20,237 nucleotides of DNA from Candidatus Thorarchaeota archaeon (GTDB lineage Archaea; Asgardarchaeota; Thorarchaeia; Thorarchaeales; Thorarchaeaceae). The notes beneath the pieces are model-generated. The model was not told the origin of the DNA and did not search any database. It worked only from the letters and a program-made list of their open reading frames with translations. The position numbers and the translations under genes were made by a program. Within the stretch, counting starts at the first letter, position 1; every line of letters starts with the position of its first letter. Of this stretch, positions 1 to 18,300 are shown piece by piece. The DNA lies in NCBI GenBank assembly GCA_016933575.1, contig JAFGAR010000052.1:1-20237 (forward strand), in the 5' to 3' direction.

Positions 1-2508
1 CTTGAGCAAATCACTCATGAGATAGTAGTTCGGATCATCGATCTTCTCCATTTTGGGGTATTCGTAATCCGGGTAGAGTTTAGTTGGAGCATAGATGACT
101 TTTTTCACCTTCGTTTTCGGCTTCACCTGATTGACTCGTTCTATCCTTCTGTAGGAACAGACGACGACCTCTACGCCACTTTCTTTCAGCTCATACTCCA
201 AATCATCAGCCTTGTGTAGGATACTCAAAGGCACATGTATCGCACCAATCTTCATAGCAGCATAGTCTGCAATGATGAACTCAGGGCATGACGGCAATAC
301 TGTCGCAACCTTGTCGCCTTTCTCCACACCTAATGCAATAAATGCTGAAGCGAGTCTATCTACTCGATCTTTCAGCTCAGGATATGTCATCTCCTCATCA
401 ACATACTCACACGCGATAACATCTGGAAACTCTCGTGCTGTATCTTCCAAGAAGCTGTAGATGTTTATCTCGGGATATGGCTTCATCGTATAGGATAGCT
501 TGAATGGTCCAATGAAATACTTGTCAAACCAGGGCTTATCACTAGCTGATGCTTTCCTCGCCTCAGCAACTTGCTTACGCTCAACTTCTTGTAGATCCTT
601 CACCTTCTTTCTAACGACTTCTTGAATTGGTGCTATATCTCCGTGTATAACATCTACTAGCCATTCCAAATCAAGCTCCTCCAGCTTCTCGATGGTGGGC
701 CTCCCATACTCATCCCATCCTCGATACTGGTAATATGCATCCAAGAGGATGTCAAGATCCACAACCTGTCCCTCTGCAGGACCTTCAGGCAATGGGTCCT
801 CAAGCAATCTAGGTGGAAGGGTATCATCAGCGCGCGTGAATCCCTCTCGTATGAGATATGCACGTTCAAGGTTGTAGATGCGCTCTCCTGTCCTTCGGAA
901 CTCGTCAGCAGTCATATCGATACCCATCAAGCTAGACATCAGTCCTGCCCAGTCGTCCGCTGTGAGCACCATTCCCATGAACTTGCATCCACCAATCGCA
1001 TCGAAATTGCCCAATGAGTCCTCAAAGTTCTTCACAATCAAGGCGGTCTCAGGTATCTCTCGTAAGGGATCTCCAACATCTGCCTCTTCTACTATCATGA
1101 AGGGCATGTTGAGAAAAGCTGGACCTTCAATATATGCGGTGATATGGTCTCCACCACGATTAGCAACAGCGTATGCGAGACCTGTCACCTTTGCTGCTCT
1201 GCTATCATAACCCGGCAACTCGAGACCCTTGACATGCATAGCGAAATGCTCTGAGCCCTGTCCAAGCTTCTGGGACATCCTCATGGTACCTTCGGCCAAG
1301 AGATCTCCTATCCCCTCTCGCTTTGCTATCTTCTCTATGATATCTACAATGAGTTGGGCATTTCCCCATGAGAAGTCCAGACCATCAACATCCTCAGGTT
1401 TCAGGATTCCACGCTGATAGCATTCCATGGCAAATGCCACTGAGCTACCGGCAGAGATCGTATCTAGTCCATACTCATTACAGAGGAAATGTGCGAGTGT
1501 GATGGCTTCCAGATTATCTATGCCACACATCGTTCCAAATGAGCTGATCGATTCGTACTCAGGTCCCTCTCCTTTGCTCTTGAAGGGTCCCGCCTTGATC
1601 TCTGCTATTCTCCCACAATGTATCGGGCATGCAAAGCAAGGCTTTCTCTTCACCAGTATCTTCTCATTGATGGCAGTTCCATTGATAGCCTCTGCATTCT
1701 CAAATACGCCAGTTTGCCAATTCTTGGTGGGGATTCCACCTTTCACATTGACAAGGTCGACCATCGTCGCTGTTCCATAGACCTCGAGTGTCATCTTCAG
1801 GATACTCTGGTTCACCCAATCAAATCTCTGCTTAGCCTCCTCTCGATATCTCTCTGGGTCTGCGATAGGGATTTGCAATGTCCCTCTCGATGCAATCGCT
1901 TTGAGGTTCTTCGAGCCCATCACTGCACCAACCCCGCACCTACCTGCTGCCCGTCCCCAGTTCTCCTCATCGCAGTCATTCATGATGGCCGCATACTTGA
2001 CGAGATTCTCTCCCGCAATGCCAATGCAGGCTACATTGAATGTTGACCCGTGTTTCTCCTTCAAGATTCTGGTAGTTTCAGATGTATTCATCCCCCAGAG
2101 TTTTCCTGCATCAAGGAGCTCTGCCTTTCCATCATCCGTAAGAAGGTATACTGGTCTGGGTGAAACTCCCTCGAATATCACACCGTCAAATCCTGAGCGT
2201 TTGAAATCCCGTCCCCAGAATCCTGCTGAGTTCGCTTGTCCCCATCCATTCGTGAGAGGTGCCTTCGTCACAACACTATAGCGGCCTGTGCTAGGAGACT
2301 GCGTTCCAGTGAGTGGCCCTGTCATGAAGATGAGTTTGTTCTCGGGTCCTAGTGGGTCGATTCCGGGTTCAGTTTCATCAAAGAGATATTTCGTTGCCAA
2401 TCCTGACCCGCCGAGATATTTTCTCAGGGTTTCATCATCAGGAAACTCTTCACTGATGGAACTAGTTGTAAGATTCACTCTCAGGATTTTTCCCATGTAT
2501 CCATGCAT
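1..2508 (-). CDS. aor: Fusion of tungsten aldehyde:ferredoxin oxidoreductase (about 2508-661, ~616 aa) with a FadD-like AMP-dependent acyl-CoA ligase (540->1, first 180 aa visible); 3'-partial, 836 codons in window
   Basis: Manual translation from ATG 2508: MHGYMGKILRVNLTT..LRKYLGGSGLA; CFACPIHC; EGPEYE; NEYGLDTIS; ANRGGDH; DAIGGCKF; typical AOR end GWDEYGRPTIEKLEELDLEW. It continues with no stop (720->1 read manually) into KPWFDKY..PYPEINIYSFLEDTAREFPD..MTYPELKDRVDRLASAFIALGVEKGDKVATVLPSCPEFIIADYAAMKIGAIHVPLS, a long-chain acyl-CoA ligase N-terminus. Its absence from the ORF track is consistent with no stop inside the window. Confidence 0.93.
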   Translation of the reverse strand, partial: MHGYMGKILRVNLTTSSISEEFPDDETLRKYLGGSGLATKYLFDETEPGIDPLGPENKLIFMTGPLTGTQSPSTGRYSVVTKAPLTNGWGQANSAGFWGRDFKRSGFDGVIFEGVSPRPVYLLTDDGKAELLDAGKLWGMNTSETTRILKEKHGSTFNVACIGIAGENLVKYAAIMNDCDEENWGRAAGRCGVGAVMGSKNLKAIASRGTLQIPIADPERYREEAKQRFDWVNQSILKMTLEVYGTATMVDLVNVKGGIPTKNWQTGVFENAEAINGTAINEKILVKRKPCFACPIHCGRIAEIKAGPFKSKGEGPEYESISSFGTMCGIDNLEAITLAHFLCNEYGLDTISAGSSVAFAMECYQRGILKPEDVDGLDFSWGNAQLIVDIIEKIAKREGIGDLLAEGTMRMSQKLGQGSEHFAMHVKGLELPGYDSRAAKVTGLAYAVANRGGDHITAYIEGPAFLNMPFMIVEEADVGDPLREIPETALIVKNFEDSLGNFDAIGGCKFMGMVLTADDWAGLMSSLMGIDMTADEFRRTGERIYNLERAYLIREGFTRADDTLPPRLLEDPLPEGPAEGQVVDLDILLDAYYQYRGWDEYGRPTIEKLEELDLEWLVDVIHGDIAPIQEVVRKKVKDLQEVERKQVAEARKASASDKPWFDKYFIGPFKLSYTMKPYPEINIYSFLEDTAREFPDVIACEYVDEEMTYPELKDRVDRLASAFIALGVEKGDKVATVLPSCPEFIIADYAAMKIGAIHVPLSILHKADDLEYELKESGVEVVVCSYRRIERVNQVKPKTKVKKVIYAPTKLYPDYEYPKMEKIDDPNYYLMSDLLK

Positions 2509-2548
2509 TTCTCGAAGGACCCCTAATCCCATAACTGTGTCTGTACGG

Positions 2549-2589: not shown

Positions 2590-2871
2590 TTGAGAATCAC
2601 GGTCAAGTTCTATGCATACCTCCGAGACCAAATCGGTGGTCACTCTGTGCTAGAACTCGACATGGATGAACCAGCCAAGGTTTCTCAAGTTCTTGACAAG
2701 ATATGTGAGAACTCCAAGATACGGGCGGCAATCATGGGTAAGAATAATGAGATGAAGGATGAGATAACCCTTCTGAAGAATGGCCGGGAGATTAAATTCT
2801 TGGATGGTCTAGACACAATCCTTGAACAGGGGGATGTCATAGCAGTCTTTCCGTTAGTTGCAGGTGGTTGA
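2590..2871 (+). CDS. moaD: MoaD/ThiS-family ubiquitin-like sulfur carrier (SAMP-like)
   Basis: 93 aa; VKFYAYLRD N-terminus, LKNGREI..GLDTILEQGDVIAVFPLVAGG with C-terminal GG; adjacent to a pterin-dependent AOR. Confidence 0.9.
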   Translation: MRITVKFYAYLRDQIGGHSVLELDMDEPAKVSQVLDKICENSKIRAAIMGKNNEMKDEITLLKNGREIKFLDGLDTILEQGDVIAVFPLVAGG

Positions 2872-2939: not shown

Positions 2940-3389
2940 ATGGCGGAACTATTTTCACCAGAGTGGTTAGAGCTCTATGAAGTAGCTTTGAATAAGAATG
3001 ATGCTTATGCAAAGGCAGCATCTTGGTGGACTGGGGACTTTGTTTTCATTGTAAGAGCCAGTGGGAAGCTAGTTCATGACATCTTTGCCTTTGTCGGATT
3101 GAAACATGGCAAATGCACGGGTGTCAAAGCAATCTCTGGAGAAAGTGACTATGAAGTGGTCGCTGAGGGAGAAAGCGCAAGTGATACCAAGAAGCTTGGT
3201 GCCGAGTACACGTACGAGGCGAGCTATGACACATGGATCTCGATACTAAAGGGTGAACTCGATCCAATCCGTGGACTATTGAGTGGTAAGGCAAAGATCC
3301 AAGGGAATATGGCCAAGGTCCTCAAGGCAACAGATGCCGCCAAGGAATTGGTTCGAACCGCTGGTATGATTGATACAGATTACTTCTAG
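2940..3389 (+). CDS. SCP2 sterol/lipid-binding domain protein
   Basis: FSPEWL..LNKNDAYAKAASWW and ASYDTWISILKGELDPIRGLLSGKAKIQGNMAKVLK match the prokaryotic SCP2 pattern; SD-like GAAGGAGAGG upstream. Confidence 0.85.
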   Translation: MAELFSPEWLELYEVALNKNDAYAKAASWWTGDFVFIVRASGKLVHDIFAFVGLKHGKCTGVKAISGESDYEVVAEGESASDTKKLGAEYTYEASYDTWISILKGELDPIRGLLSGKAKIQGNMAKVLKATDAAKELVRTAGMIDTDYF

Positions 3390-3408: not shown

Positions 3409-3822
3409 ATGGATGAATCAGCGCAAGAGACCTTATTCTTGACCTTCAAGACGGTCATCGATGATGTTATCGCAGATAAACGGAGGATTCCTGAGAATGC
3501 CAAGATACTTGATGAGTTCGAGGCAAGAATCAATCTGGGATTGCACGTTGAGGAGGATTTCGTCCTCTGGCTAAATCTGGTCGCTCATGATGGTGTATAC
3601 ACTCTGAATAAAGGGAAGTTGGATGAATATGACCTAGAACTAATATCAGACCCAGAGGATCTGATGTACTTCACGAATGGTGAGTATTCTACGGCTAAGA
3701 TGATGACAGGTAAAAATCGATTTGGGAAAAGGCGACTACGCTATAAAGGTGGAACAACTGGTCGTAATATGGGGAAGCTATTGAAGCTTCCAAAGATCCT
3801 TGTCTTGGATAGGAGAATATAG
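3409..3822 (+). CDS. Divergent SCP2-like protein (137 aa)
   Basis: ATG 3409 preferred over track start 3370 (AAGGTGG SD, no overlap with upstream gene). YTLNKGKLDEYDLELISDPEDLMYFTNGEYSTAKMMTG resembles the SCP2 core. Confidence 0.6.
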   Translation: MDESAQETLFLTFKTVIDDVIADKRRIPENAKILDEFEARINLGLHVEEDFVLWLNLVAHDGVYTLNKGKLDEYDLELISDPEDLMYFTNGEYSTAKMMTGKNRFGKRRLRYKGGTTGRNMGKLLKLPKILVLDRRI

Positions 3823-3992: not shown

Positions 3993-5336
3993 TTGAGCTT
4001 CTTACACTATTCCAGACTAAAAGGAAGAGAATTCACTGGACTTTCTACATTTCAGGTCCTTTCATACTTCAGACGCTCCATTGTCTATACATTCTTGTCC
4101 ATATACCTTAGGTCTCTGGGACTCTCAACCACTGAAGTCACCTTGATGGCGACTGTAGGAATGATAGCCAATGCTGGCACACAATCGCTCCTGTGGGGGA
4201 ATGCTCTTGATAGATACAGACGACCCACTGAATTCGTCGCACTAGGAGAGTTCCTCGCTGGCTTTGGCCACATATTCATGGTCTTCGGGTACCAGTTCTT
4301 CCTTGTATCGAGTCAGCCTATCAGCGCAGGTTACATTATCATCATCAGTCTGGGAATCATCGAGGTATTCTGGAGCATGTCCAATGTTGGTTGGTCTGCT
4401 CTTCTCTCTGAACTCACAGATCTCGATGAGCGCAAGAGGATCATGGGTCAGCTCTCAATCATTGGCGGCTTTGGTGGTATCGGTGGCGCATATCTAGGTG
4501 GATTCCTCTTCGATAATGGTGTAGGTTTTGCGAACGGTAGCATCTTCTTCATCGCCGCGGTAGTGATGATTCTCTCAAGCTTTATTGTATACTATTCAAT
4601 TAGAATGGGAAGAGAATCCGATTCGATAGGTACTGGTGAATCTGGGTCAAATGGAAACAAGCCATTAAGTGATCTACCGTCAGTATTGCGACGGGGCTAT
4701 CTCCTTTTCATTGCGGCCTTGGTCCTCATCAATTTTGGAAGGAACTCCATTGCCATCATATCAAGTCTCTTTCTGGCAGATCCGACTGGCTTTGGAGCGG
4801 ATGGTGAGCAGATCGCACTCTATAGCAATATTGGCAGTATCGCATCAATGCTTGCTGGATTGATAGTCGGTTCGATCATAGCAAAGGCAGAAGATAACAA
4901 GGTTATGGCATTTGGAGTCACATTGTCGATGCTAGCGATCACATGGCTTATCTTTGCACCGACCTTCATATTGGTACTCATCTCATCGTTCCTTATTGGC
5001 TCCTCTCACGTTGTGATAGAGTCATCAAGCTATTCGATCGTTGCGAGAATGGCACCAGAGGAGTATAGAGGACGTCTATTCGCCTATTACAATGCGACCT
5101 TCTTTCTCAGCTGGGGTATTGCTGCGACGTTGATTGCCGGTCCTATTGCAGACATCCTCATCTCCCAAGGCTTTAGCAATGCTGATGGCTATCGTGGGAG
5201 CTTTGTAGCAGCCATAGCTCTGATCATACTCGGTTTCATAGTCCTAGCAAGGTCCTATCTCTATTCAAAGAAGAATGGACTGCTGAATGATGCAACTGAT
5301 GATATTGTTCTCATTGATGAGGTTGGAAATGAGTAG
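3993..5336 (+). CDS. Major facilitator superfamily transporter
   Basis: 447 aa, about 12 hydrophobic segments in two halves, motif-A-like WGNALDRYRR, APEEYRGRLFAYY; TATTTAAG at 3959-3966 suggests a leaderless TTG start. Confidence 0.9.
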   Translation: MSFLHYSRLKGREFTGLSTFQVLSYFRRSIVYTFLSIYLRSLGLSTTEVTLMATVGMIANAGTQSLLWGNALDRYRRPTEFVALGEFLAGFGHIFMVFGYQFFLVSSQPISAGYIIIISLGIIEVFWSMSNVGWSALLSELTDLDERKRIMGQLSIIGGFGGIGGAYLGGFLFDNGVGFANGSIFFIAAVVMILSSFIVYYSIRMGRESDSIGTGESGSNGNKPLSDLPSVLRRGYLLFIAALVLINFGRNSIAIISSLFLADPTGFGADGEQIALYSNIGSIASMLAGLIVGSIIAKAEDNKVMAFGVTLSMLAITWLIFAPTFILVLISSFLIGSSHVVIESSSYSIVARMAPEEYRGRLFAYYNATFFLSWGIAATLIAGPIADILISQGFSNADGYRGSFVAAIALIILGFIVLARSYLYSKKNGLLNDATDDIVLIDEVGNE

Positions 5337-5365: not shown

Positions 5366-5926
5366 TCACTTCAGAGATTTTGTGATCTCCTCTGGATGCA
5401 AAGGTATGTTGCTGAGAACAGGGGATTCGTTCCCGATCATTGCAGGCAATGCATAGAGCTGGGTTGCTTGAAGGAGCTGCTCCAGCTTCACTCTGACACC
5501 TTCAGTGGATTCGTCAATCATAATCGGCTCAATGCTCTTAATGTCAAAACCATCTAGCAGCTTTGGATAGTTCAAAATTCTCGCAGATGTCTTTTGATGT
5601 CCTGTTGTTGCATATTCGTTGTTGTCTAGTATCAATATCTTCATGTTCTTCGGGTTGACGAATGAACAAGTAGCCAATGCTCCGAGTCCCATTAGTAGAT
5701 TTCCATCTCCCACGATGACGAGAACTTGTTTCTCTGGCTTCGCCACCGCAACACCTAACCCAATGGAGATCGGTAGTCCCATACTTCCTCTGAGATATAT
5801 TTGTGGCCTCGGTAGGTAGTGATAGACTTGTCTGCTGATGTTGCCATTGCTACTCACGATGAGCTCTTCTCCAGTAAGGATATGAGCCAACTCTTGGAGA
5901 ATCTCAAAGCCATGCATTAAGATCAT
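5366..5926 (-). CDS. comE: ThDP-dependent decarboxylase beta subunit (ComE / phosphonopyruvate decarboxylase C-half like)
   Basis: GSMG, GDGNLLMGLG, LDNNEYATTGHQKT ThDP/Mg-binding motif; ATGA overlap with the upstream alpha subunit at 5923-5926. Substrate uncertain. Confidence 0.75.
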   Translation of the reverse strand: MILMHGFEILQELAHILTGEELIVSSNGNISRQVYHYLPRPQIYLRGSMGLPISIGLGVAVAKPEKQVLVIVGDGNLLMGLGALATCSFVNPKNMKILILDNNEYATTGHQKTSARILNYPKLLDGFDIKSIEPIMIDESTEGVRVKLEQLLQATQLYALPAMIGNESPVLSNIPLHPEEITKSLK

Positions 5927-6414
5927 AACACCCCCTGCTTGACTAGGAGAGCAACTGGCCGAGAGGTCTCATTCATCTTCGAAAGCGATTCCTTCATGAC
6001 ATCCTGCCATTCTTCTTCAGAGAGTATCCAATATGGGACCTGATAGGCATCAAGGGTTTCTTCAGTTATGTTTCCCATGATAGAATGCTCCGGAAAGTCG
6101 CGATCAGGTTCAAGTCCTCGCCAGCTAACTATCAACAGCATCGGTAGCTTGTAGAGTTGCGCCAGAGAAGTGAGTGCATCTCCAATGGTGGCAAATCCTG
6201 AGTTCTGCATTATCACAAAGGCCCTTTTCCCTCCGAAAGCGACTCCTGATGCGATCCCAACTGCTTCATCCTCTCTTGTCGCTGGAATATACGATATCTC
6301 TTGTTGATTCGCAAGTGCATCAATGAGTCTGGCAAAATAGGAGCAGGGAACGCCAGATCCGAATGTGAAGTCATGGCACTTGAGAGTTGCCAGAAAATCT
6401 GAAGAGGCTATCAT
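5923..6414 (-). CDS. comD: ThDP-dependent decarboxylase alpha subunit (ComD / phosphonopyruvate decarboxylase N-half like)
   Basis: GVPCS, TREDEAVGIASG, MQNSG, SWRG..DFPEHSIMG PYR-domain motifs; 163 aa. Substrate uncertain. Confidence 0.75.
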   Translation of the reverse strand: MIASSDFLATLKCHDFTFGSGVPCSYFARLIDALANQQEISYIPATREDEAVGIASGVAFGGKRAFVIMQNSGFATIGDALTSLAQLYKLPMLLIVSWRGLEPDRDFPEHSIMGNITEETLDAYQVPYWILSEEEWQDVMKESLSKMNETSRPVALLVKQGVL

Positions 6415-8756: not shown

Positions 8757-11700
8757 TTGAAACGAATCTACCTGATTTTCGTTACACTATTTTTCATGTT
8801 CTTATTCTTCGGGGCAGATATCAAGAGCGCGCTGGATCATCCTGAGATGAATGGATACGCATCAAATGAGGAGGTCGGCCTACGATCTTCTGAAGACCTC
8901 GTTAGGAGCGTACTCGCTGAGATTGGTCCTGCAAAGACACCAGTTACTTTGAAGGATCTAGTAACAGAGCTCCAGTTAGTGACTCCTTTGATCAATCAGA
9001 CTGACTGTGATGGTGATGGACTCTGGGACATCATCGAATCAGTCATCGGTACAGACTTCAATGATACTGATTCTGATCGCGACACACTCAATGATACTTA
9101 CGAGGTTTTCAACGACCTTGATCCTTTGGCAGCGGATTCAAATGAAGATGGTATTCCAGACAATCATGAAATCCGAAATGTTCTTTCATTAGACATCGAT
9201 GGTGATGGAACTCCAAATGCATGGGATTTCGACAATGATAATGATGGTGTGAGCGATGCGATTGACCTTTCGCCAAATGCGAAATCTTCAATCAATGATG
9301 CTTTTGATATCCAAATAACTACTGATGGAAAGCCCCTCTACATCTCATTTCAGATAGTTCCAGATAATCCCCTGCACACCAGACTTGTTGATCAATGGTG
9401 GGATTGGCCAAACGATACAGAAGATAGGATGCAGGATTTAGACGGATCGCAAAAAGATGTGCAGGTATTACCTTTTCTGAATCTCAGTATAAACTTCGAA
9501 CTTGACCAGAGGTTGGTCGAGGGGTATCCTATGCTAGTGACCTATGATGGATTGCTTGCTGCTTTGACCTCTGTTTACGACTCTGGGAGTGTTGTTGCAT
9601 TAGAATCAAGAATCCATATCCCCGAAATGACCTTTACCAATCTCTCATTGCATGCAGAGCTCATATGGAAGGTCGTTGGTTATACAGACAGACAAGCAAT
9701 TGCATTGATGGATGATGAAGGTGCATTCCTCTCCTCTTACTCCAACGGTTTAGCTGTTGCAAATGCAACTGACCTCTTCTCCTCTTCTGCCTTGCAGAAA
9801 ATCGACTTGGCTGATGGAATGATCGCTCTACGGATGCTTGGTGGCGGTTTCCTATCAGTTTCCCCCAATGGTCTTTTGTATTTCAATGGGACCGAACTTG
9901 GTCAAAGCGAAACTTTCATGCCTTACAACACCTCTCAAAATCAGATGTCACTGCGATCGATAGCGACGGGTATGTATGTTGCAACAGGTGCTAATGGTCT
10001 AATGATCGCAAATAGCACCTCTGAAGAGGTCTTTCAGATCGCAGACCTTGGCATCTATCCAGAACCAATAACCTTGGAGATATACGATGATAGCTTCAGA
10101 TTCTCAGGTATCTCTGTTCAGGAGTGCTACTACACCAACATGGGTGTCTACTATAGCAATAATCGTAATCAAACAATAGCGGCTCAGGGACTTCTCTCGT
10201 ACGATTTCTTGAGGAATTCCACAACTACTCTCTGGGATATCCCAGCTGTGCTGGCTGATCATGAGATAGGCTTGATGTACCAGAATCAATCATTTCGCGG
10301 AGTTGACCACGCATATGTATCTCTGAGTAATGATCTTCTGCCCCATGCGCTTGATACTCTCCCCTCATTCAAAATACTTCCTGTGATCATAGCTGGCGCA
10401 CACAGAATCAAGATCGCCGATTTGTCTGAGGTCCTCGAAGGCACTTATGTCGCTGGGCATGTACTCTGTTTTGACTTAGGTATTTTCAACACATCAGACG
10501 TAAAGTCCCTGTCCTGTTATTTCTACAATACTACTACCTACGAAGCCTTGACAATCGGGCAGATTATGGATGAAATCAGAAGCTGGGGCTACGACGATAT
10601 CACCACAGAAGCCCTCATGATCACGATGTGCAAATTCACAGCAGGAGAATGGATAGTTTGCCAAGAGGGATTCACCAATGAGGTTCCCGATGTCTCGATT
10701 GTGGAAAGTTGGGTTCTGTTCGCCAAAGGCGTCTTTGGAACATTTGGAGATGACATACTGAAAATAACCTGTAAGCTCCTCCGGACTTATTTCGATGAGC
10801 ATTTTATGATGCTGAAAACCCGTCCACGCAGCAATGCTATCTGGTCTGAGAAGGCACTGTGGCAACGAGTAACTACTGCCGGAAAAGCCGTTACATCTGC
10901 ACAAAAGGTCTCCAAATTCTTCAGAAGTAATGCCATCGGGATCTTGTGCATTGTGATAGATGTTGGACTCTCAATATATGCTGCATTTCTGATAGCTGAA
11001 GAGATTGGAGGTAGGCTTGGTCAGGAAATAGGGGCAACATATGGCGTAATCTCATCTATCGTTAGTCTGGTGATAGGAATCCACCTACTAGTCATCGCAA
11101 TGGCAGGACCGATTGGATTTGCAATAGCGGCAGTAATTTCTCTGATACTGGGGCTTGCTGAGTTATGTGGTGGTGTCATCTCAAAGTTTGTTGAGTGGCT
11201 AACAGAGACCATTTTTGGAAGTGTAGATAGGATTAGTTCTACACTGCCTTTGTCTGACATTTCAGATATCAGATTCGAAACTAATGATTCCACTCTCAGT
11301 GTTGGTGATAGACTAACGATGTTCTGCAAATTGATAGGAAATGTTACCGGTTCGGGAACCGAGCAGCGAAGGTGGGTAGGTCAAAGCTATAGCATCCCTT
11401 GGATAAGTATGGATATGCCCTCCGGGTCGAATTCTGCTACTGGTAGTTCTGATACTGCGGACTATGATTTCCTCCAGAACACTCTGTTTGGAATTGTGCC
11501 TGGCGATTACTGGGAAGCAAGAATGTACAACTACTCGGTGTGGATCGAGCCTGATGTCGCTTCACCTAATTTTCCAGTTGCCATAGGGCTGCACACGGAC
11601 TATCATATTTGGGATATCTGGTCACATTCTGTACTAGGACTATTCGATTGCCGACATGAGGACGAATATTTCGATAGCATGACCTACGTATACACACGAA

Positions 11701-14700
11701 TCTATTTCGATGTCATGCCGGACAGTCTTGACGCTTTTGTAGAATGGAGATCCATTCATGCTATCGATTCAGATATGGATGGATTGAACAATACAATTGA
11801 GAGCAGCTATGGTTCTTCCAGTCGCTGGTCATATGATACTGATTGTGATGAGCTTAATGACGCATTCGAAGTGACTATTGGCACAGATCCACGGAAACGC
11901 GATTCTGATGACGACTCACTTAGTGATTATTACGAGTGCCTCTATGGCACGAATGCCACAGACAGCGATTCTGATGGTGATGGACTTTTCGACTACCTTG
12001 AGATCGCTGGTTGGCAGATTAGGTTCGACTATATGTCAAACTCCTCACTTCCTTTTGAAATGCTTGTTACATCTAGTCCTTGGATGAATGATAGTGATGG
12101 TGATGATGTTGTGGACTTTGATGAATATCAAAGCCATTTGAATCCAAGAAGCGGTGATACAAACGGTGATAGGCATTCTGATGAGGCTTTGCCTAGGATC
12201 AGGTCGTACATTGATGACTGTGCAGCTGATGTTTATGTCGATGACCTGTGGAAAGACTCAATCTATCAAGGATTCTTGCATACCGAAAATGAGAGCTATC
12301 TTGGTGGAGGTCTGGCTTTCAGTGATGAAGGATACATCTATGTTCCAAATTCTGTTACTGGGGTTGAGAGATTTTACACAAATTTCACAGTAGCGCCAGT
12401 GCCATCGCACTATTTCCCTGACTTGGTTCTCTCAGTCTATCCGTATGCTCAGGCCATGGCCGTTGATGTAGACAATGCAAATGACTGGATCTATGTGATT
12501 CAGCAATTCATAGACGCTGGCTCTTGGGCACATACGGATTTGTACCAATATTCCCTTGATGGGTCTGTCATCAATCCTGGTAGTTGGACCCAGCCTACAG
12601 ATGGCCATAATTATGATGTCGTTGTAGGTGCAGATTCAAGCGTCTTTCTTGCTCATGAGAATTATATCGTGAAATATAGTTCGACCGGGATGCTCCTAGC
12701 CACTTGGGCTGGTCCTTCTATCGTTGATCAGCAACTACTAGAGGTCGTAGTAGATGATGTGAATGGGCTTCTCTATGCGACAGATCGCGGTCGCTGTCTT
12801 TCAGACATTGAACCCGGTCGCATCATTAGGTTGAATGCAACTGATGGTAGCTACCTCGGCTCAATTCCAAAAGGCCCATTCTATGATATGTGTCATATCG
12901 CAGTTGATGATGAGGGGTATATCTATGCGATTGGTAAAATGCTCAATGAGTCCGCATATATTTGCAAGTTCGATAGGAATGGTATGGAAGACATGAGTTT
13001 CAGGAAGAACCTCTATGATCTCTTTGGAGCCGGATATTGCGATGCCCTTTATGTTGATCAGGGTTATATCTACATCTGTTACTATTGTGACAATCTTTCG
13101 GGAACCCGTGTCCTCTGGAAACTTCATCAGGTTACTACGAGTGATGAACCCTGTTTGACTGATGATAATCCTGATTGGGATGGCGACGGCTTGACTAATC
13201 AGCTGGAGGTCAATGGTTGGGAGATCACTGTTGCCTTCAATGCGACCTGCACTATGACCTTCAATGTGACCAGTGATCCACGTCTGATTGATACTGATGG
13301 AGATCATCTCAGCGACTACCTTGAGTACAACCTCACATCAAATCCGCAGTGTTCTGATTCCGATGCAGATGGTGCTTCTGACCATCAGGAGTGGTGGATG
13401 AACTCACATCCTGGTGAGGTATACGTTCCTCCACTGATGCACCCACATTTTCTTGCTCCTGATATGGAATCCACATCAGCGTCCATGGCATCAACGGTGA
13501 GCCTGACCCGTTGGGATAGTGATGGGGATCTCCTTGGAGACGGTGTGGAGTTGGCTTATGGAAGTAATCCGACCTTGCAAGATTCTGATGGCGATTCTCT
13601 ATCAGACCTAGTTGAGTTCCAGCTCAATTCCGATCCGAACAAGATCGATACCGACGACGATGAAGCAACAGATGCCGAGGAGTATACAGGAAACTCAAGT
13701 CTCCTCGTAGCCGATTCTGATGGTGACTTTGCATTCGACGGAGCAGAGTATGACATGGGCTCCAGTCCCTTGAATGCTGATGTTGATGAAGATGGCATCG
13801 TCGATGGCGACGAGGCTCTGTTCGGAACGAACCCATTCTCTAGCGATTCTGACGGCGATAATGTGTCTGATTGGATGGAGCTCAGCCTCTGGCTAGACCC
13901 TCTCAATAATGATTCAGATGGAGACGGCGTTCTTGATGGCGTAGAGTTGGAATGGGGTAGCAATCCTTGGAGTCACGATTCTGATAGGGATGGCGTTCCA
14001 GATGGAGAGGATCCCGATACCTTCATCACTTGGTATGGACCGATAGTTCTCGCCTATGATATCGATGAACAGAACCAGACCTTGTCCTTTGCTGAGAAGC
14101 TGCAGGATTACACAACTGTGATCATGGTATCAGTCGACGAACTCATGCATTCCTACACAGAGTATCCATACATCGTTCTGGTAGGTCGTCCTGATGCTGA
14201 TAGTGATACCGTAGCTGGTCTGACCTACTCGCTTTTGGCGGATACTGGTAGTGTCCTTGGAGAGATGATGGAGCCAGAGTCTCACGAGGTCGCAACCCGC
14301 TATGGCTACTGGACTGATCCACAGACCATTGTTATACTCTCGGAAGCATATGATAGCGATGTCTACACAGTATTACAAATCCTCCGTGGCAGGAATATAT
14401 CGATTCTTCTTGACTCTGTGTATATCGAGTATCTAGCGGAGATTGTTACTGACAACGTTACCTATGCACATGCTTTCGAAGTGAACGAGATTGACACGGT
14501 CAAATCAACGGATACGATACTGTCCATTGCACTAAGTGGCCTTGCAGTACCTATTCTGCTCATAACGCGATATAATGACACCACGACTCCATATCAACTG
14601 ACCTCCAATTCGGGATTAGCTGAGAATGAAGTTCCTTTGGGCAAATATATCGGGATTGACTTGGCATTCAATGGGGTGTCAGGCGGTACAATCCAAAGCG

Positions 14701-15095
14701 CTCTGATTCAGATATACTATAAGGCATTGGATCTTGACTTCAATAGAGATGGGATCATCAACCAGATGAGCGACTTGAATGAAACTTCTCTCTGTCTGTA
14801 CTGGTATGATGAAGAAACTTCTTCTTGGGTCAAACTATCTGAAGATCTCGACTGGGTGCTCGATTGGGGTCTCAACACGATTGATTTGGAACTCTACGGG
14901 GAGCATTATGCTGGATTCATATGGGTACAAGTCACCCACTTCTCACTCTTCGCGGTGGCAGGTGAATTGATTGGTGCTGTATATCCTGATTTGACATATC
15001 TAGCGATATTGGTTGGATGTTTCTGCGTGGTCGCCGCGATAATCCTCCGTCGAAAAAGGAAAGGGCGATTTCATACGGACAAGAAGACATCCTAA
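8757..15095 (+). CDS. Giant (2112 aa) cell-surface protein, copy A: Ca-binding repeats, fascin-like trefoil, hydrophobic helical domain, NHL-like propeller, HFS motif, C-terminal TM anchor
   Basis: Signal peptide MKRIYLIFVTLFFMFLFFG; DxDxDG blocks at ~9003-9272, ~11766-12185 and ~13173-14020; trefoil ~9690-10050; hydrophobic helices ~10930-11220; propeller ~12290-13130; VTHFSLFAVAG; TM followed by RRKRKGR; many N-x-S/T sequons. Confidence 0.9.
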   Translation: MKRIYLIFVTLFFMFLFFGADIKSALDHPEMNGYASNEEVGLRSSEDLVRSVLAEIGPAKTPVTLKDLVTELQLVTPLINQTDCDGDGLWDIIESVIGTDFNDTDSDRDTLNDTYEVFNDLDPLAADSNEDGIPDNHEIRNVLSLDIDGDGTPNAWDFDNDNDGVSDAIDLSPNAKSSINDAFDIQITTDGKPLYISFQIVPDNPLHTRLVDQWWDWPNDTEDRMQDLDGSQKDVQVLPFLNLSINFELDQRLVEGYPMLVTYDGLLAALTSVYDSGSVVALESRIHIPEMTFTNLSLHAELIWKVVGYTDRQAIALMDDEGAFLSSYSNGLAVANATDLFSSSALQKIDLADGMIALRMLGGGFLSVSPNGLLYFNGTELGQSETFMPYNTSQNQMSLRSIATGMYVATGANGLMIANSTSEEVFQIADLGIYPEPITLEIYDDSFRFSGISVQECYYTNMGVYYSNNRNQTIAAQGLLSYDFLRNSTTTLWDIPAVLADHEIGLMYQNQSFRGVDHAYVSLSNDLLPHALDTLPSFKILPVIIAGAHRIKIADLSEVLEGTYVAGHVLCFDLGIFNTSDVKSLSCYFYNTTTYEALTIGQIMDEIRSWGYDDITTEALMITMCKFTAGEWIVCQEGFTNEVPDVSIVESWVLFAKGVFGTFGDDILKITCKLLRTYFDEHFMMLKTRPRSNAIWSEKALWQRVTTAGKAVTSAQKVSKFFRSNAIGILCIVIDVGLSIYAAFLIAEEIGGRLGQEIGATYGVISSIVSLVIGIHLLVIAMAGPIGFAIAAVISLILGLAELCGGVISKFVEWLTETIFGSVDRISSTLPLSDISDIRFETNDSTLSVGDRLTMFCKLIGNVTGSGTEQRRWVGQSYSIPWISMDMPSGSNSATGSSDTADYDFLQNTLFGIVPGDYWEARMYNYSVWIEPDVASPNFPVAIGLHTDYHIWDIWSHSVLGLFDCRHEDEYFDSMTYVYTRIYFDVMPDSLDAFVEWRSIHAIDSDMDGLNNTIESSYGSSSRWSYDTDCDELNDAFEVTIGTDPRKRDSDDDSLSDYYECLYGTNATDSDSDGDGLFDYLEIAGWQIRFDYMSNSSLPFEMLVTSSPWMNDSDGDDVVDFDEYQSHLNPRSGDTNGDRHSDEALPRIRSYIDDCAADVYVDDLWKDSIYQGFLHTENESYLGGGLAFSDEGYIYVPNSVTGVERFYTNFTVAPVPSHYFPDLVLSVYPYAQAMAVDVDNANDWIYVIQQFIDAGSWAHTDLYQYSLDGSVINPGSWTQPTDGHNYDVVVGADSSVFLAHENYIVKYSSTGMLLATWAGPSIVDQQLLEVVVDDVNGLLYATDRGRCLSDIEPGRIIRLNATDGSYLGSIPKGPFYDMCHIAVDDEGYIYAIGKMLNESAYICKFDRNGMEDMSFRKNLYDLFGAGYCDALYVDQGYIYICYYCDNLSGTRVLWKLHQVTTSDEPCLTDDNPDWDGDGLTNQLEVNGWEITVAFNATCTMTFNVTSDPRLIDTDGDHLSDYLEYNLTSNPQCSDSDADGASDHQEWWMNSHPGEVYVPPLMHPHFLAPDMESTSASMASTVSLTRWDSDGDLLGDGVELAYGSNPTLQDSDGDSLSDLVEFQLNSDPNKIDTDDDEATDAEEYTGNSSLLVADSDGDFAFDGAEYDMGSSPLNADVDEDGIVDGDEALFGTNPFSSDSDGDNVSDWMELSLWLDPLNNDSDGDGVLDGVELEWGSNPWSHDSDRDGVPDGEDPDTFITWYGPIVLAYDIDEQNQTLSFAEKLQDYTTVIMVSVDELMHSYTEYPYIVLVGRPDADSDTVAGLTYSLLADTGSVLGEMMEPESHEVATRYGYWTDPQTIVILSEAYDSDVYTVLQILRGRNISILLDSVYIEYLAEIVTDNVTYAHAFEVNEIDTVKSTDTILSIALSGLAVPILLITRYNDTTTPYQLTSNSGLAENEVPLGKYIGIDLAFNGVSGGTIQSALIQIYYKALDLDFNRDGIINQMSDLNETSLCLYWYDEETSSWVKLSEDLDWVLDWGLNTIDLELYGEHYAGFIWVQVTHFSLFAVAGELIGAVYPDLTYLAILVGCFCVVAAIILRRKRKGRFHTDKKTS
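13173..14020 (+). repeat. Protein-level tandem ~22-aa DxDxDG-L-x-D-x-x-E-x-x-x-G-x-(N/D)-P Ca-binding (thrombospondin type 3-like) repeats
   Basis: For example DSDGDLLGDGVELAYGSNPTLQ / DSDGDSLSDLVEFQLNSDPNKI / DSDGDFAFDGAEYDMGSSPLNA / DSDGDGVLDGVELEWGSNPWSH; degenerate at DNA level. Confidence 0.85.
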
Positions 15096-15250: not shown

Positions 15251-15345
15251 TCATCCATTGATTAGAAATACATTTTAGAACCTTTTGGTCTGATTATGCT
15301 ATTCGTCTGGTTCTATTCGCATTGTTGGTTAGAAGGAATATACTA

Positions 15346-18300
15346 GTGAAGCGACCATTGCCATTGCTTTTTGCACTTTTTGTGTTATTCTTATTCATAG
15401 GTTCTGATCTTAGGAGCGCTCTGGATAATCCTAGGTTCATTCATTCTGATTCAGAAGAAAGCGATGTTTTGCAACCTGAGAATTATCAAGTGCAGAACTT
15501 GGCAGATCAACCGAATCCACGCAAAGTATTCTCACTTAGGAATCTTGCAATAGAACTTCAAAGTGTCACGCCTCCAGCAAATAGGATCGATTCGGATGGT
15601 GACACACTCTATGACTCGGTCGAACTTGTTCTGGGGACAAATAGCACCCTTAATGATACAGACCATGATTTCTTGACTGATGACTATGAGGTCTACAATG
15701 GTCTTGATCCAACTGAGCCTGACACTAATTTTGATGGCATGCCTGACAACTTGGAATGCGATGTGTCTTCCTTGGATATCGATCAGGATGGCATTATTAA
15801 TCCTTGGGACTTTGACAATGATGGAGATTCGGTAATTGATAATGCTGATCTGTCACCCATGGCGTTAACTGAGGTAGAAGATGAGTTCAACTTTGAAATC
15901 GAGACCGATGGAAGTCCGCTCTATCTAACTTGGCAAATAAGACCTGAAAATCCTAGCCATCTGCAGTTATACAAGCAATATTGGGACTGGCCAAGTGGGG
16001 ATACAGAGGGTCTCATGAGGGACTATAATAACTCAATAAGAGATGTGCAGGCAATACCGCTCCTGAATGTGACTGCCAACTACATTCCTGACCAAGGTGA
16101 CTTGGTTGACTATGGAATATCCTCATTTGAAACCTACGTACTGGTCCCGTTAATCGCTGTACGTGACAATGGAAAGATTGTTGCCTTCAAGGGAAAGATG
16201 TTCTATCCAACTTCTGCACCTCTCAATTTGATTCTTAGTGTCAAACTAATTTGGAGAATCGTGGGCTATTCAGATGGGGACTTGATAGCATTCCAGGGAA
16301 CCGATAATGGCGGGAATAACCACCTATCTGTGGATTCAGAAGGACTTCTTTCTGTCGCGGCCATTGATCCGGAAGATGGACAATTCGAGGTAGTTGATAT
16401 AGGTCATAGCGACTATGCTAGCCATATAGCAATCAGAGCACCTAATGGTTTGTATGTTTCAGTAAATCCTGATGGTACGATACTTGCAGATAGCGAAACC
16501 ATAGGTGTAGAAGAAACGCTCATCATTGAAAAATGCAATCCTACTAATTGGGAGCAGGCAGCATGGCTTGGGACCAAAGTGGTCATGAAAGACTATCTTG
16601 ATCGATACATCTCAGTCCTTTCAGATACTACCATCAGGGCGTATTCTACCACTGGATTCAATGGAGCAGAGAGATTCAACCTGGTTGACTTGGGAGTATA
16701 CGCATCTCCAGTAACTCTGGTTACGTATGACGATCCCTTCATGCTTACAGGTTTTCGGGCAGAAGCAAACTATGGGACCGATTTGGGATATGTCTATAGT
16801 CCTCACGAGAATGTAACTCTAGCTGCAAATCTCTTTCTAAGCTATCAATACCTCAGGAACTCATCCGTTGGATACAATGATATTCCTGATATACTCACAG
16901 CTACTGACTTCAATGCTGAAATAACTAGTAATTCATATCCACATAGTGATATTGCATTCATTTCAATGGCTAAGGAAACATTGCCGCTTGTTTTGGACTC
17001 TCTCCCATCAAATGAGATACTTCCGATTCTTACGATTGTTTATGATTCATGTAAACTCCTAGACCTTTCGGATCTGCTAGTTGCAGGTTATACTCCCGCG
17101 AATCCAACAGAAATCGATTTCCACACACTTACTTTGCAATCCCACAAATCGATGAAGACTGGCTTCTATAACACATCCAGCAAAGATGCCCTGTCATATG
17201 AAGAAATCATGGATCGAATTGACTATCTCATTCCTGATGATTATGCTTCTCTTGTCGTTCAATGCATGATTCTCAACTGGATGTCTGGAGAGCTTCTTGA
17301 TGCTCAGACAGATGTTTCAGAGTATAGAGATATAGCGGGAGCGATCTCTCAGGTTCTTCTTTGGACTAGTCTTGTCGTGGGAAGTGTCAGTTCTTTAGCG
17401 AGTATTATATTCGGTGGAAAGGCCTTTCAATCAGTACAACTAGTACTGGAGAACTCTTTGGGCAAAGTCACTGCATTCTCAAAGACTGCTGTGTTACAGA
17501 ACAAGGATATCATTACCAAGCAGATTCAAGGTGGAGTAAAGGCAAAACTGGAAACGACAAGTATCTGGGATCGAGTTGGACAATTTCTTCTTGTTGTGTC
17601 AATCCTTACCGAATGCACCATCTCTGTCCTACAGGGACTTGCTCTTGCGGAGGAGATAGGGGGGAATCTTGGACGCGATATTGGAGCTTCTTTTGGCACT
17701 TTTAGAGCTGTCATATTGACACTAGAGCTGGTCGCTCTCTATTATCTTGGTATGGGATTTTCAGCAGTTGCGCTGTCTGGTTTTGGTGTCATATTAATTG
17801 CCATCTGGTGCGTCTTGGATTGTCTCCTTGGACTATCGGATAAGCTTGCAGCTTGGCTATCTTCTCTAATGATAAGCCATGCCCGGTCATATAGTACAAC
17901 ACCTTCCCTTAAGGGAGCGGATATCTCGAAGGATGTACTGGATTATGATTCGAATGGACTAAACATTGGAGATGGATTTAGTGTCTTGGCACGTCTGACA
18001 AGTCGATTGGAATCTCATAGTATAACCTGTAGAGACCAAAGCATCTGTATCCCATATGTTACAATTAATGTACCAGCAGGTAGTTGGTCGACTACTGGAA
18101 GCACTGGTCCCGATTTGATTAGTTCTCAGCAACCCACTTATTGCGATGAAGTGAGTGGGTGGTGGAAGGAGCAAACATATGACTCATCTGCTTGGATTTA
18201 CCCTGGGACTGCAATGGCAAACTTCCCCGTCATGACTAATCTACACATGGACTATAATCTCAGATGGCAGTATGATTACAGGTGGTGGTGTTTTGGATGG

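What the first reader, a model, noticed from the sequence alone, without database searches (positions are those of the whole stretch)
1..2508. In-frame fusion of tungsten aldehyde oxidoreductase to an acyl-CoA ligase
Seen: a complete AOR with its four Fe-S Cys and pterin motifs, then a ~40-aa charged linker (660-541; QEVVRKKVKDLQEVERKQVAEARKASAS), then a FadD-type adenylation domain with no stop between. Known: characterised AORs are stand-alone ~600-aa enzymes that convert aldehyde to carboxylate and reduce ferredoxin, while FadD converts carboxylate plus ATP and CoA to acyl-CoA. Inference: one polypeptide channels (long-chain) aldehyde to acid to acyl-CoA, capturing low-potential electrons and feeding beta-oxidation. 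I know of no characterised enzyme with this architecture.
Basis: partly seen in the sequence, partly recalled or inferred. Interest (0 to 1): 0.85.

Follow-up and report, generated by a model that had tools for sequence, protein, structure and literature searches.

The report
Aldehyde oxidoreductase fused to acyl-CoA ligase
This is a real single gene of an uncultured Thorarchaeota-type (Asgard) archaeon that joins an intact tungsten-type aldehyde-oxidising enzyme to an acyl-CoA-forming enzyme; relatives keep the same two enzymes as neighbouring genes beside lipid-carrier genes, so together they probably turn greasy aldehydes into acyl-CoA by a route nobody has tested.

Summary
Window 1-2508 (minus strand) is one open frame: a complete AOR, a 34-aa charged linker (541-642), then the first 180 residues of a FadD-like ligase. 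The frame stops only because the contig ends, so the P-loop and C-terminal domain are not in this window or elsewhere in this MAG.

It is not a misassembly. About 35 protein clusters from independent assemblies encode the same ~1210-aa protein (77-92% identity), and all catalytic motifs of both halves are invariant.

The fusion arose from an operon. Other species of the same genus, and many other Asgard genomes, have AOR and ligase as adjacent cistrons. A tree places the fused genes in two separate clades (Thorarchaeota-type, Hodarchaeota-labelled), so fusion happened at least twice.

An SCP2-family gene flanked 23 of the 24 wide-flank orthologous loci with both genes. A MoaD/SAMP-like gene and a second protein of SCP2 fold are often present. 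The genome has beta-oxidation genes.

Best reading: hydrophobic aldehyde to acid (reducing ferredoxin) to acyl-CoA. Direction, substrate and any channelling are inferred, not shown.

No paper describing the fusion was found. The scan has met this fusion before on other genomes, with the same reading. It is a new variant of known kinds, of moderate to high interest.

The parts
1..2508 (-). 5' 836 codons of the AOR-acyl-CoA ligase fusion gene, cut at the contig end (full length in orthologues about 1210 aa)
1879..2493 (-). AFOR_N domain
   Evidence: E 2.5e-77; coordinates
667..1800 (-). AFOR_C domains 2 and 3 (pterin and Fe-S binding)
   Evidence: E 4.3e-139; coordinates
1615..1638 (-). C-x2-C-x3-C: three of the four [4Fe-4S] cysteine ligands
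   Evidence: aligned to the C-x2-C-x3-C of 1AOR; invariant in 28 fused proteins
1552..1569 (-). EGPEYE motif holding the active-site Glu
1144..1158 (-). RGGDH motif holding the active-site His
979..993 (-). GGCKF: fourth [4Fe-4S] cysteine within the second pterin-binding motif
541..642 (-). 34-aa charged linker; it replaces the stop codon, intergenic spacer and ligase start of the split operon form
1..540 (-). N-terminal 180 residues of the FadD-like adenylate-forming ligase (starts DKPWFDKY); the P-loop lies just beyond the contig end
2546..2553 (-). TATA-like box in the 81-nt divergent promoter region shared with the MoaD-like gene
   Evidence: sequence read directly; function inferred
2590..2871 (+). 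MoaD/SAMP1-like small protein ending in GG, divergently transcribed; probable sulfur carrier for pterin cofactor synthesis
   Evidence: SAMP1 66.2 bits against cut-off 60; moaD_arch 63.1 against 49.5; synteny
2940..3389 (+). SCP2-family protein 'a' (149 aa), present in 23 of the 24 wide-flank orthologous loci that hold both genes
   Evidence: PF02036, 25.9 bits against cut-off 21.3
3409..3822 (+). SCP2-fold protein 'b' (no Pfam hit; recognised by predicted fold)
   Evidence: pLDDT 85.6; Foldseek top hits are SCP2 proteins and domains
3993..5336 (+). MFS transporter, syntenic in several fused Thorarchaeota loci

Best explanation
This is a genuine bifunctional gene that arose by fusing the two cistrons of a conserved Asgard-archaeal operon.

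Proposed steps:
1. The N-terminal half is a canonical tungstopterin/[4Fe-4S] aldehyde:ferredoxin oxidoreductase. It oxidises an aldehyde to the free acid and passes two electrons to ferredoxin.
2. The C-terminal half is a FadD-like adenylate-forming ligase, tethered by a linker of about 40 aa with variable sequence. It converts that acid with ATP and CoA into the acyl-CoA, which enters beta-oxidation.
3. Two small SCP2-fold proteins encoded beside it probably carry the poorly soluble substrate or product.
4. The MoaD/SAMP-like neighbour probably serves pterin cofactor synthesis.

Shown: the architecture, the intactness and conservation of both catalytic halves, the operon origin, at least two independent fusions, and the conserved partners.

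Inferred: the direction, the hydrophobic (medium- or long-chain aliphatic, possibly isoprenoid or aromatic) substrate, and any kinetic benefit of tethering.
For: Architecture is real:
- There is a continuous frame.
- About 35 clusters of 1204-1226-aa proteins carry PF02730+PF01314+PF00501+PF13193, from NCBI, JGI, ENA and Logan assemblies, including a 179-kb contig at 92% identity.

Both halves are intact:
- The AOR half is closest to P. furiosus AOR (1AOR, E 3.7e-160), with the Cys ligands, Glu and His aligned.
- The ligase half is closest to A. fulgidus FadD-1 (3g7s, E 1.4e-59), and the best NCBIfam models are all long-chain fatty-acid-CoA ligases.
- All motifs are invariant in 28 fused proteins of 61-86% identity.

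Functional linkage is independent of the fusion:
- The split pairs have AOR followed by ligase, adjacent and co-oriented, with GGTGA-like ribosome sites, in families f1, f9 and f18.
- The fused genes form two separate clades. A single clade is rejected (AU p 1e-45).

Hydrophobic substrate:
- SCP2a lies beside the pair in 23 of the 24 wide-flank orthologous loci that hold both genes.
- SCP2b has an SCP2 fold.

Downstream pathway: the genome has 5 acyl-CoA dehydrogenase matches and one 3-hydroxyacyl-CoA dehydrogenase match.

A sequential Aor-then-FadD route from aldehyde to acyl-CoA has been proposed for alkane-oxidising archaea, with separate enzymes (PMC10811742).
Against: - No activity, expression or read-level data could be obtained.
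- The ligase half is truncated in this window.
- No curated FadD model reaches its cut-off (best 369 bits against 476), so chain-length specificity is unknown.
- SCP2a-family genes also occur in many loci without this pair, so that association runs in one direction only.
- AORs are reversible in vitro (PMC9295118 abstract), so sequence does not fix the direction.
- The linker is variable and split forms are common, so tight channelling is not implied.
- The full-length structure model was too poor to show any domain interface.
Confidence: 0.6

Rival explanations
1. Same enzyme, opposite physiological direction. The ligase runs backwards (acyl-CoA + AMP + PPi gives acid + ATP + CoA). The AOR half then reduces the acid to an aldehyde with reduced ferredoxin, as an electron sink or a route to alcohols.
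For: AORs can reduce non-activated acids with low-potential donors (PMC9295118 abstract). Nothing in the sequence fixes the direction. Asgard genomes carry many AOR copies: 8 AOR-type matches in the own genome and mostly 6-12 per genome in its genus.
Against: Acid reduction by ferredoxin is thermodynamically uphill under standard conditions (established knowledge of the acid/aldehyde couple). ATP synthesis by AMP-forming ligases is rare (own knowledge). No alcohol dehydrogenase is conserved in the module. The genome has beta-oxidation genes, which fits acyl-CoA as the product.
Confidence: 0.14
2. The pair acts on amino-acid-derived aldehydes (arylacetaldehydes, branched-chain aldehydes) rather than on lipid aldehydes, salvaging the acids as CoA esters during peptide fermentation.
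For: The AOR half is closest to P. furiosus AOR. Asgard papers assign their AORs to aldehydes released by 2-oxoacid oxidoreductases (PMC8163825). A split TPP-dependent decarboxylase-like gene pair lies 3 kb away at 5366-6414 and is syntenic in the closest relative.
Against: The two conserved partners have the SCP2 lipid-carrier fold. The best ligase matches are fatty-acid ligases, not PaaK-type arylacetate ligases. The TPP genes were not found near the pair in families f9 and f18.
Confidence: 0.15
3. Assembly or gene-calling artefact: two adjacent genes falsely joined in this MAG.
For: The contig ends inside the gene, the MAG is fragmented (215 contigs, 6.9% contamination), and the read-level check was not possible.
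Against: The same junction, with a homologous linker at 85% DNA identity, occurs on a 179-kb contig of another MAG. Dozens of independent assemblies encode full-length frames. The linker has no stop in any of about 25 fused genes.
Confidence: 0.02

Closest known systems
Pyrococcus furiosus aldehyde:ferredoxin oxidoreductase (PDB 1AOR) and other AOR-proper enzymes (9mqx, 9g7j, 8c0z)
   Same: Residues 1-614 of the AOR half align end to end (E 3.7e-160). They share the C-x2-C-x3-C plus distal Cys, the EGPEYE Glu, the GGxH His and both pterin motifs.
   Different: The characterised enzymes are stand-alone proteins of about 600-616 aa, or have Fe-S/FAD subunits in Aromatoleum. This one carries a C-terminal linker of about 40 aa and a ligase of about 550 aa.
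FadD-type long-chain fatty-acid-CoA ligases (A. fulgidus FadD-1, PDB 3g7s; NCBIfam PRK06187, PRK05605, PRK08974)
   Same: The two-domain ANL architecture, with the N-terminal KPW..Y start, P-loop TGGTTG.PKG, GYGATE, GD, the DRIKDMI hinge and the C-terminal Lys in the full-length orthologues.
   Different: It lies below every curated family cut-off (best 369 against 476 bits), is fused or operon-linked to an AOR, and its specificity is unknown.
Proposed Aor plus FadD route from aldehyde to acyl-CoA in alkane-oxidising archaea (Ca. Cerberiarchaeum, Ca. Ethanoperedens; PMC10811742)
   Same: The same two enzyme types are invoked in the same order to reach acyl-CoA.
   Different: There the enzymes are separate and unlinked, and the role is hypothetical. 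Here they are operon-linked or fused, and no alkyl-CoM reductase was found in this 85.5%-complete genome.
Carboxylic acid reductases (CAR: adenylation domain, carrier domain, NADPH reductase domain; PMC5826065)
   Same: One polypeptide combines an ANL adenylation domain with a domain that interconverts acid and aldehyde.
   Different: This protein has no phosphopantetheine carrier and no NAD(P)H reductase domain (domain list). Its redox half is a tungstopterin enzyme, the domain order is reversed, and the likely direction is oxidative.
BamB, the AOR-family subunit of class II benzoyl-CoA reductase (PDB 4z3w)
   Same: It is an AOR-family protein that acts on a CoA thioester, which made it worth considering for a ligase partner.
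   Different: It is a much weaker match (E 6.4e-67, covering only residues 5-433) than AOR proper.

Membership tests
AOR family, AOR-proper clade (tungstopterin aldehyde:ferredoxin oxidoreductase) | AFOR_N plus AFOR_C domains over the full length | tested here: met
   259.6 and 464.4 bits, far above the cut-offs
AOR family, AOR-proper clade (tungstopterin aldehyde:ferredoxin oxidoreductase) | Four Cys ligands of the [4Fe-4S] cluster, and the active-site Glu and His | tested here: met
   alignment to 1AOR; coordinates; invariant in 28 fused proteins
AOR family, AOR-proper clade (tungstopterin aldehyde:ferredoxin oxidoreductase) | Closer to AOR proper than to FOR, WOR5 or BamB | tested here: met
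   1AOR 3.7e-160, FOR 4.8e-113, WOR5 2.2e-79, BamB 6.4e-67. This is a ranking by E-value; no family tree was built.
AOR family, AOR-proper clade (tungstopterin aldehyde:ferredoxin oxidoreductase) | Tungsten content and aldehyde-dependent ferredoxin reduction | not testable with these tools
   needs purified protein
AOR family, AOR-proper clade (tungstopterin aldehyde:ferredoxin oxidoreductase) | Stand-alone polypeptide of about 600-620 aa | tested here: not met
   The frame continues into a ligase. This is the variant feature, not a reason to exclude the catalytic domain from the family.
ANL superfamily, FadD-like acyl-CoA synthetase | AMP-binding plus AMP-binding_C domains | tested here: inconclusive
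   The window holds only profile positions 1-133 of 384 because the contig ends. The domains are complete in orthologues of 77-92% identity.
ANL superfamily, FadD-like acyl-CoA synthetase | P-loop, GYGATE, GD, hinge DR.KD and the catalytic C-terminal Lys | tested here: inconclusive
   These are absent from the window, which is cut about 20 codons before the P-loop. They are all invariant in 28 full-length fused orthologues.
ANL superfamily, FadD-like acyl-CoA synthetase | Score above a curated long-chain FadD model cut-off | tested here: not met
   best is PRK06187 at 368.9 bits against a cut-off of 476; the FadD equivalog PRK08974 scores 272.9 against 884
Carboxylic acid reductase (CAR) | Phosphopantetheine carrier domain and a C-terminal NAD(P)H reductase domain | tested here: not met
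   The precomputed Pfam list for the full-length proteins holds only PF02730, PF01314, PF00501 and PF13193.
SCP2 lipid-carrier fold (partner genes) | SCP2 domain by sequence (a) or by predicted fold (b) | tested here: met
   a: PF02036 at 25.9 bits against a cut-off of 21.3. b: AF2 pLDDT 85.6, and the Foldseek top hits are SCP2 proteins and domains with TM 0.5-0.6. Ligand binding was not tested.

The most novel reading that the evidence does not exclude
The pair, fused or in an operon, is a tungsten- and ferredoxin-dependent counterpart of carboxylic acid reductase. The ligase half activates a fatty or isoprenoid acid as acyl-AMP or acyl-CoA. The AOR half reduces the activated acyl group to an aldehyde, feeding alcohol or ether-lipid synthesis in Asgard archaea, with the SCP2 proteins handling the lipid. 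This chemistry is not known for any AOR.
Probability: 0.07. Interest if true: 0.9.

Novelty: new variant of a known kind. Interest (0 to 1): 0.6.

Why it matters
Characterised tungsten AORs are stand-alone enzymes or carry electron-transfer subunits. A natural fusion to the next enzyme of a pathway, made at least twice and backed by a conserved operon with lipid-carrier partners, works as a Rosetta stone. It says that in Asgard archaea one AOR lineage is dedicated to feeding acyl-CoA metabolism rather than to general aldehyde detoxification.

That gives a concrete, testable candidate for how anaerobic archaea bring aldehydes into beta-oxidation while capturing low-potential electrons. Such aldehydes could come from alcohols, lipids, or possibly hydrocarbon activation. 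The aldehyde-to-acyl-CoA step is openly unresolved in alkane-oxidising archaea (PMC10811742).

It also bears on lipid turnover in the closest archaeal relatives of eukaryotes. In addition, it offers a compact scaffold to biocatalysis groups who use AORs and CARs to interconvert acids and aldehydes.

Tried and rejected
Context came from the genome search and the fetch from genomes instead.
No reads could be laid across 500-700 and there is no expression evidence.
3. The AlphaFold model of the 1200-aa fused protein was poor (mean pLDDT 45.5, pTM 0.37). Nothing can be said about a domain interface or linker disorder.
4. The search of 1.84 billion cluster representatives listed no fused representative, because the fused proteins are collapsed under shorter ones. 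The ESM Atlas gave only generic ligase clusters. Neither tells whether the fusion exists outside Asgard archaea.
5. Baiting genome contigs with SCP2a was saturated by Asgard records. The earlier agents' claim that 'many other anaerobes' have the split module was therefore not tested outside this phylum.
6. Programmed read-through of the single in-frame TGA in the split genes of genus g1 was considered and dropped. Those genes have their own ribosome-binding motifs, and in families f9 and f18 the two genes share a frame only about half the time.
7. A BamB-like role for the AOR half was rejected on similarity.
8. The HAD hydrolase that overlaps the fusion's stop codon in the closest relative is not conserved in other loci.
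9. The apparent AOR-only case in a closed Thorarchaeota chromosome is a 100-N scaffold gap.
10. A profile comparison of SCP2a with SCP2b was not significant. Only the predicted fold links b to SCP2.
Full report
**Observation.** The minus strand of window 1-2532 is one open frame of 844 codons that runs off the left end. Pfam finds AFOR_N, AFOR_C and the first third of an AMP-binding domain in that order. The window is the first 20,237 bases of contig C23 of a MAG with 215 contigs (85.5% complete, 6.9% contaminated), so the gene is cut by the assembly and not by a stop. The missing 3' part of about 375 codons is not on any other contig of this genome. The other AMP-binding genes there are complete paralogues of 40-43% identity.

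**Not an artefact.** A search of 5.8 billion protein clusters returned about 35 clusters of 1204-1226 residues that carry AFOR_N, AFOR_C, AMP-binding and AMP-binding_C. They are 77-92% identical to the window's protein and come from NCBI, JGI, ENA and Logan assemblies, most named Candidatus Thorarchaeota. A more distant set at 61-64% includes one labelled Candidatus Hodarchaeota. The closest, at 92%, lies on a 179-kb contig (JBHLQH010000004.1) that is syntenic with the window. Its DNA aligns across the junction at 85% identity with a homologous linker, and it continues into the P-loop about 20 codons beyond the point where the window stops.

**Both halves are intact enzymes.** The AOR half aligns end to end with P. 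furiosus AOR (1AOR, E 3.7e-160). The three cysteines of C-x2-C-x3-C, the distal cysteine, and the Glu of EGPEYE and His of GGxH all align. FOR, WOR5 and BamB score far lower. The ligase half of a full-length orthologue is closest to A. fulgidus FadD-1 (3g7s, E 1.4e-59), and its best NCBIfam models are all long-chain fatty-acid-CoA ligases. None reaches its curated cut-off, so specificity is open. In an alignment of 28 fused proteins (61-86% identity), every catalytic motif of both halves is invariant, including the P-loop TGGTTG.PK, G.G.TE, GD, DR.KD and the C-terminal Lys. The architecture is therefore under purifying selection.

**Origin.** In the same genus, six other species have the uninterrupted frame. 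About eleven others have a 623-aa AOR followed within a few codons by a 562-571-aa ligase. At the junction, the split form reads ...QIY-stop, then a short spacer with a GGTGA-like ribosome site, then M..SYQDKPW. The fused form has lost the stop and carries a charged insert of variable sequence.

A scan of 400 genomes of the phylum found the following:
- Fused genes in five genera of family f1.
- Fused genes in two genomes of family f18, one of them 78% identical over its full length to the Hodarchaeota-labelled protein.
- Adjacent split pairs in f1, f9 and f18, in or out of frame.

A concatenated AOR+ligase tree (53 rows, rooted on a ligase paralogue) puts the 23 f1 fusions in one clade with 100% support. 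The two f18 fusions nest among split f18 genes, and split pairs occupy all deeper branches. Holding all fused genes together costs 462 log-likelihood units (AU p 1e-45; the group was named after the tree was seen). So the operon is ancestral and fusion happened at least twice. Linkers are 38-50 aa long, similar in length but poorly conserved in sequence. The window's gene groups with those of another genus (g22). Within genus g1, fused and split forms are mutually exclusive among the genomes searched.

**Conserved partners.** In the window, the fusion gene is transcribed divergently from four genes:
- A MoaD/SAMP1-like gene, above two NCBIfam cut-offs.
- An SCP2-family gene 'a'.
- An unannotated gene 'b' of about 137 aa.
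- An MFS transporter.

SCP2a lies next to the pair in 23 of the 24 wide-flank orthologous loci that hold both genes, across f1, f9 and f18. The MoaD-like gene is there in most of them, and 'b' is there in f1 and part of f9. Protein 'b' folds confidently (pLDDT 85.6), and its top structural matches are SCP2 proteins and domains: T. thermophilus and A. fulgidus SCP2, human and insect SCP2, UbiJ-SCP2 and the alkylsulfatase SCP2 domain.

One caveat applies. SCP2a is a multi-copy family. About half of 80 loci baited with it lack the orthologous pair, although two of those carry a paralogous ligase and AOR instead. The genome has acyl-CoA dehydrogenase and 3-hydroxyacyl-CoA dehydrogenase genes, and no MCR/ACR alpha subunit was found.

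**Mechanism.** From the established chemistry of the two families, the simplest reading has two steps. First, R-CHO + H2O gives R-COOH + 2 reduced ferredoxin at the tungstopterin site. Second, R-COOH + ATP + CoA gives R-CO-SCoA + AMP + PPi at the ligase, and the product enters beta-oxidation. The SCP2 partners argue for poorly soluble substrates. The fusion would fix a 1:1 ratio and keep a membrane-active free acid close to its activating enzyme. Direction, substrate and channelling are inferences.

The rivals are:
- The reverse direction, as an electron sink.
- Amino-acid-derived aldehydes as the substrates.
- As the most novel possibility, reduction of the activated acyl group in the manner of a carboxylic acid reductase.

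An assembly artefact is effectively excluded.

**Literature and novelty.** Five full-text searches found no description of an AOR-ligase fusion or of an AOR-SCP2 module. The nearest idea is the proposed, unproven Aor-then-FadD route to acyl-CoA in alkane-oxidising archaea, which uses unlinked genes (PMC10811742). Asgard papers treat their many AORs as general aldehyde oxidisers (PMC8163825; PMC11291895). Databases label the fused proteins only as 'AOR C-terminal domain-containing protein'.

Earlier follow-up reports of this scan, on other genomes, reached the same reading. I reproduced their core points independently. Their claim that the split module occurs in many other anaerobes is untested outside the Asgard phylum.

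**Verdict.** This is a new variant of known kinds, and I score its interest at 0.6.

Noticed in passing
window 5366-6414 (-): Two adjacent small genes encode the N- and C-terminal TPP-binding halves of a split TPP enzyme (sulfopyruvate or phosphonopyruvate decarboxylase-like). They are syntenic in the closest relative but were not found near the pair in families f9 and f18. Such an enzyme could make an aldehyde from a 2-oxoacid.
   Followed up: partly
window 8757-15095 (+) and 15322-20235 (+): Two tandem giant ORFs (2112 aa and at least 1638 aa, the second running off the window). Other first-reader notes cover them, and they were not examined here.
   Followed up: no
proteins P0255 and P0134; possibly also G025:C44:14182-16011 (844-aa frame): Other natural AOR fusions exist. 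AFOR_N+AFOR_C is joined to an OMPdecase/HUMPS-family (hexulose-phosphate-synthase-like) domain in P0255 and P0134, and P0198 has an N-terminal 4Fe-4S ferredoxin domain. AORs are therefore not always stand-alone.
   Followed up: partly
L120:2092-8049 and L121:7001-12907: A paralogous triad: an SCP2a homologue (44%), a ligase paralogue (34-35%) and an AOR paralogue (37-38%) lie together in Promethearchaeota-labelled contigs. The AOR/ligase/SCP2 combination thus recurs in a second version.
   Followed up: partly
window 2940-3389 (alignment A2): SCP2a has invariant residues unusual for a passive carrier across 24 homologues (His56-Gly57-x-Cys59, Trp9, Trp30, Asp33, Glu89). They may mark a specific ligand or a catalytic or metal site.
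   Followed up: no
window 1; L077, L093, L096, L112 (contig ends); L090:4480-4579 (100-N gap): Assemblies repeatedly break inside or just after this gene: in this window, in four other MAG contigs, and at a scaffold gap in a 'closed' Thorarchaeota chromosome. This may reflect the many AOR and ligase paralogues or strain variation.
   Followed up: partly
L016-L020, L044, L046-L048 (split genes of genus g1): All ten split pairs of this clade end the AOR with TGA and keep the ligase in the same frame 54-60 nt downstream. In three of them (L019, L020, L044) that TGA is the only stop in between. This is probably inherited, but it would allow a read-through fusion product.
   Followed up: partly
L071:13783-14415 (+): In the closest relative, a HAD-family hydrolase gene overlaps the stop codon of the fusion gene. 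It is not conserved in the other loci examined.
   Followed up: yes
L119 (DATKTW010000026.1): A 5.9-kb contig labelled Candidatus Nanopelagicaceae bacterium carries an SCP2a homologue at the same identity as the Asgard copies. It is probably a mis-binned archaeal contig.
   Followed up: no
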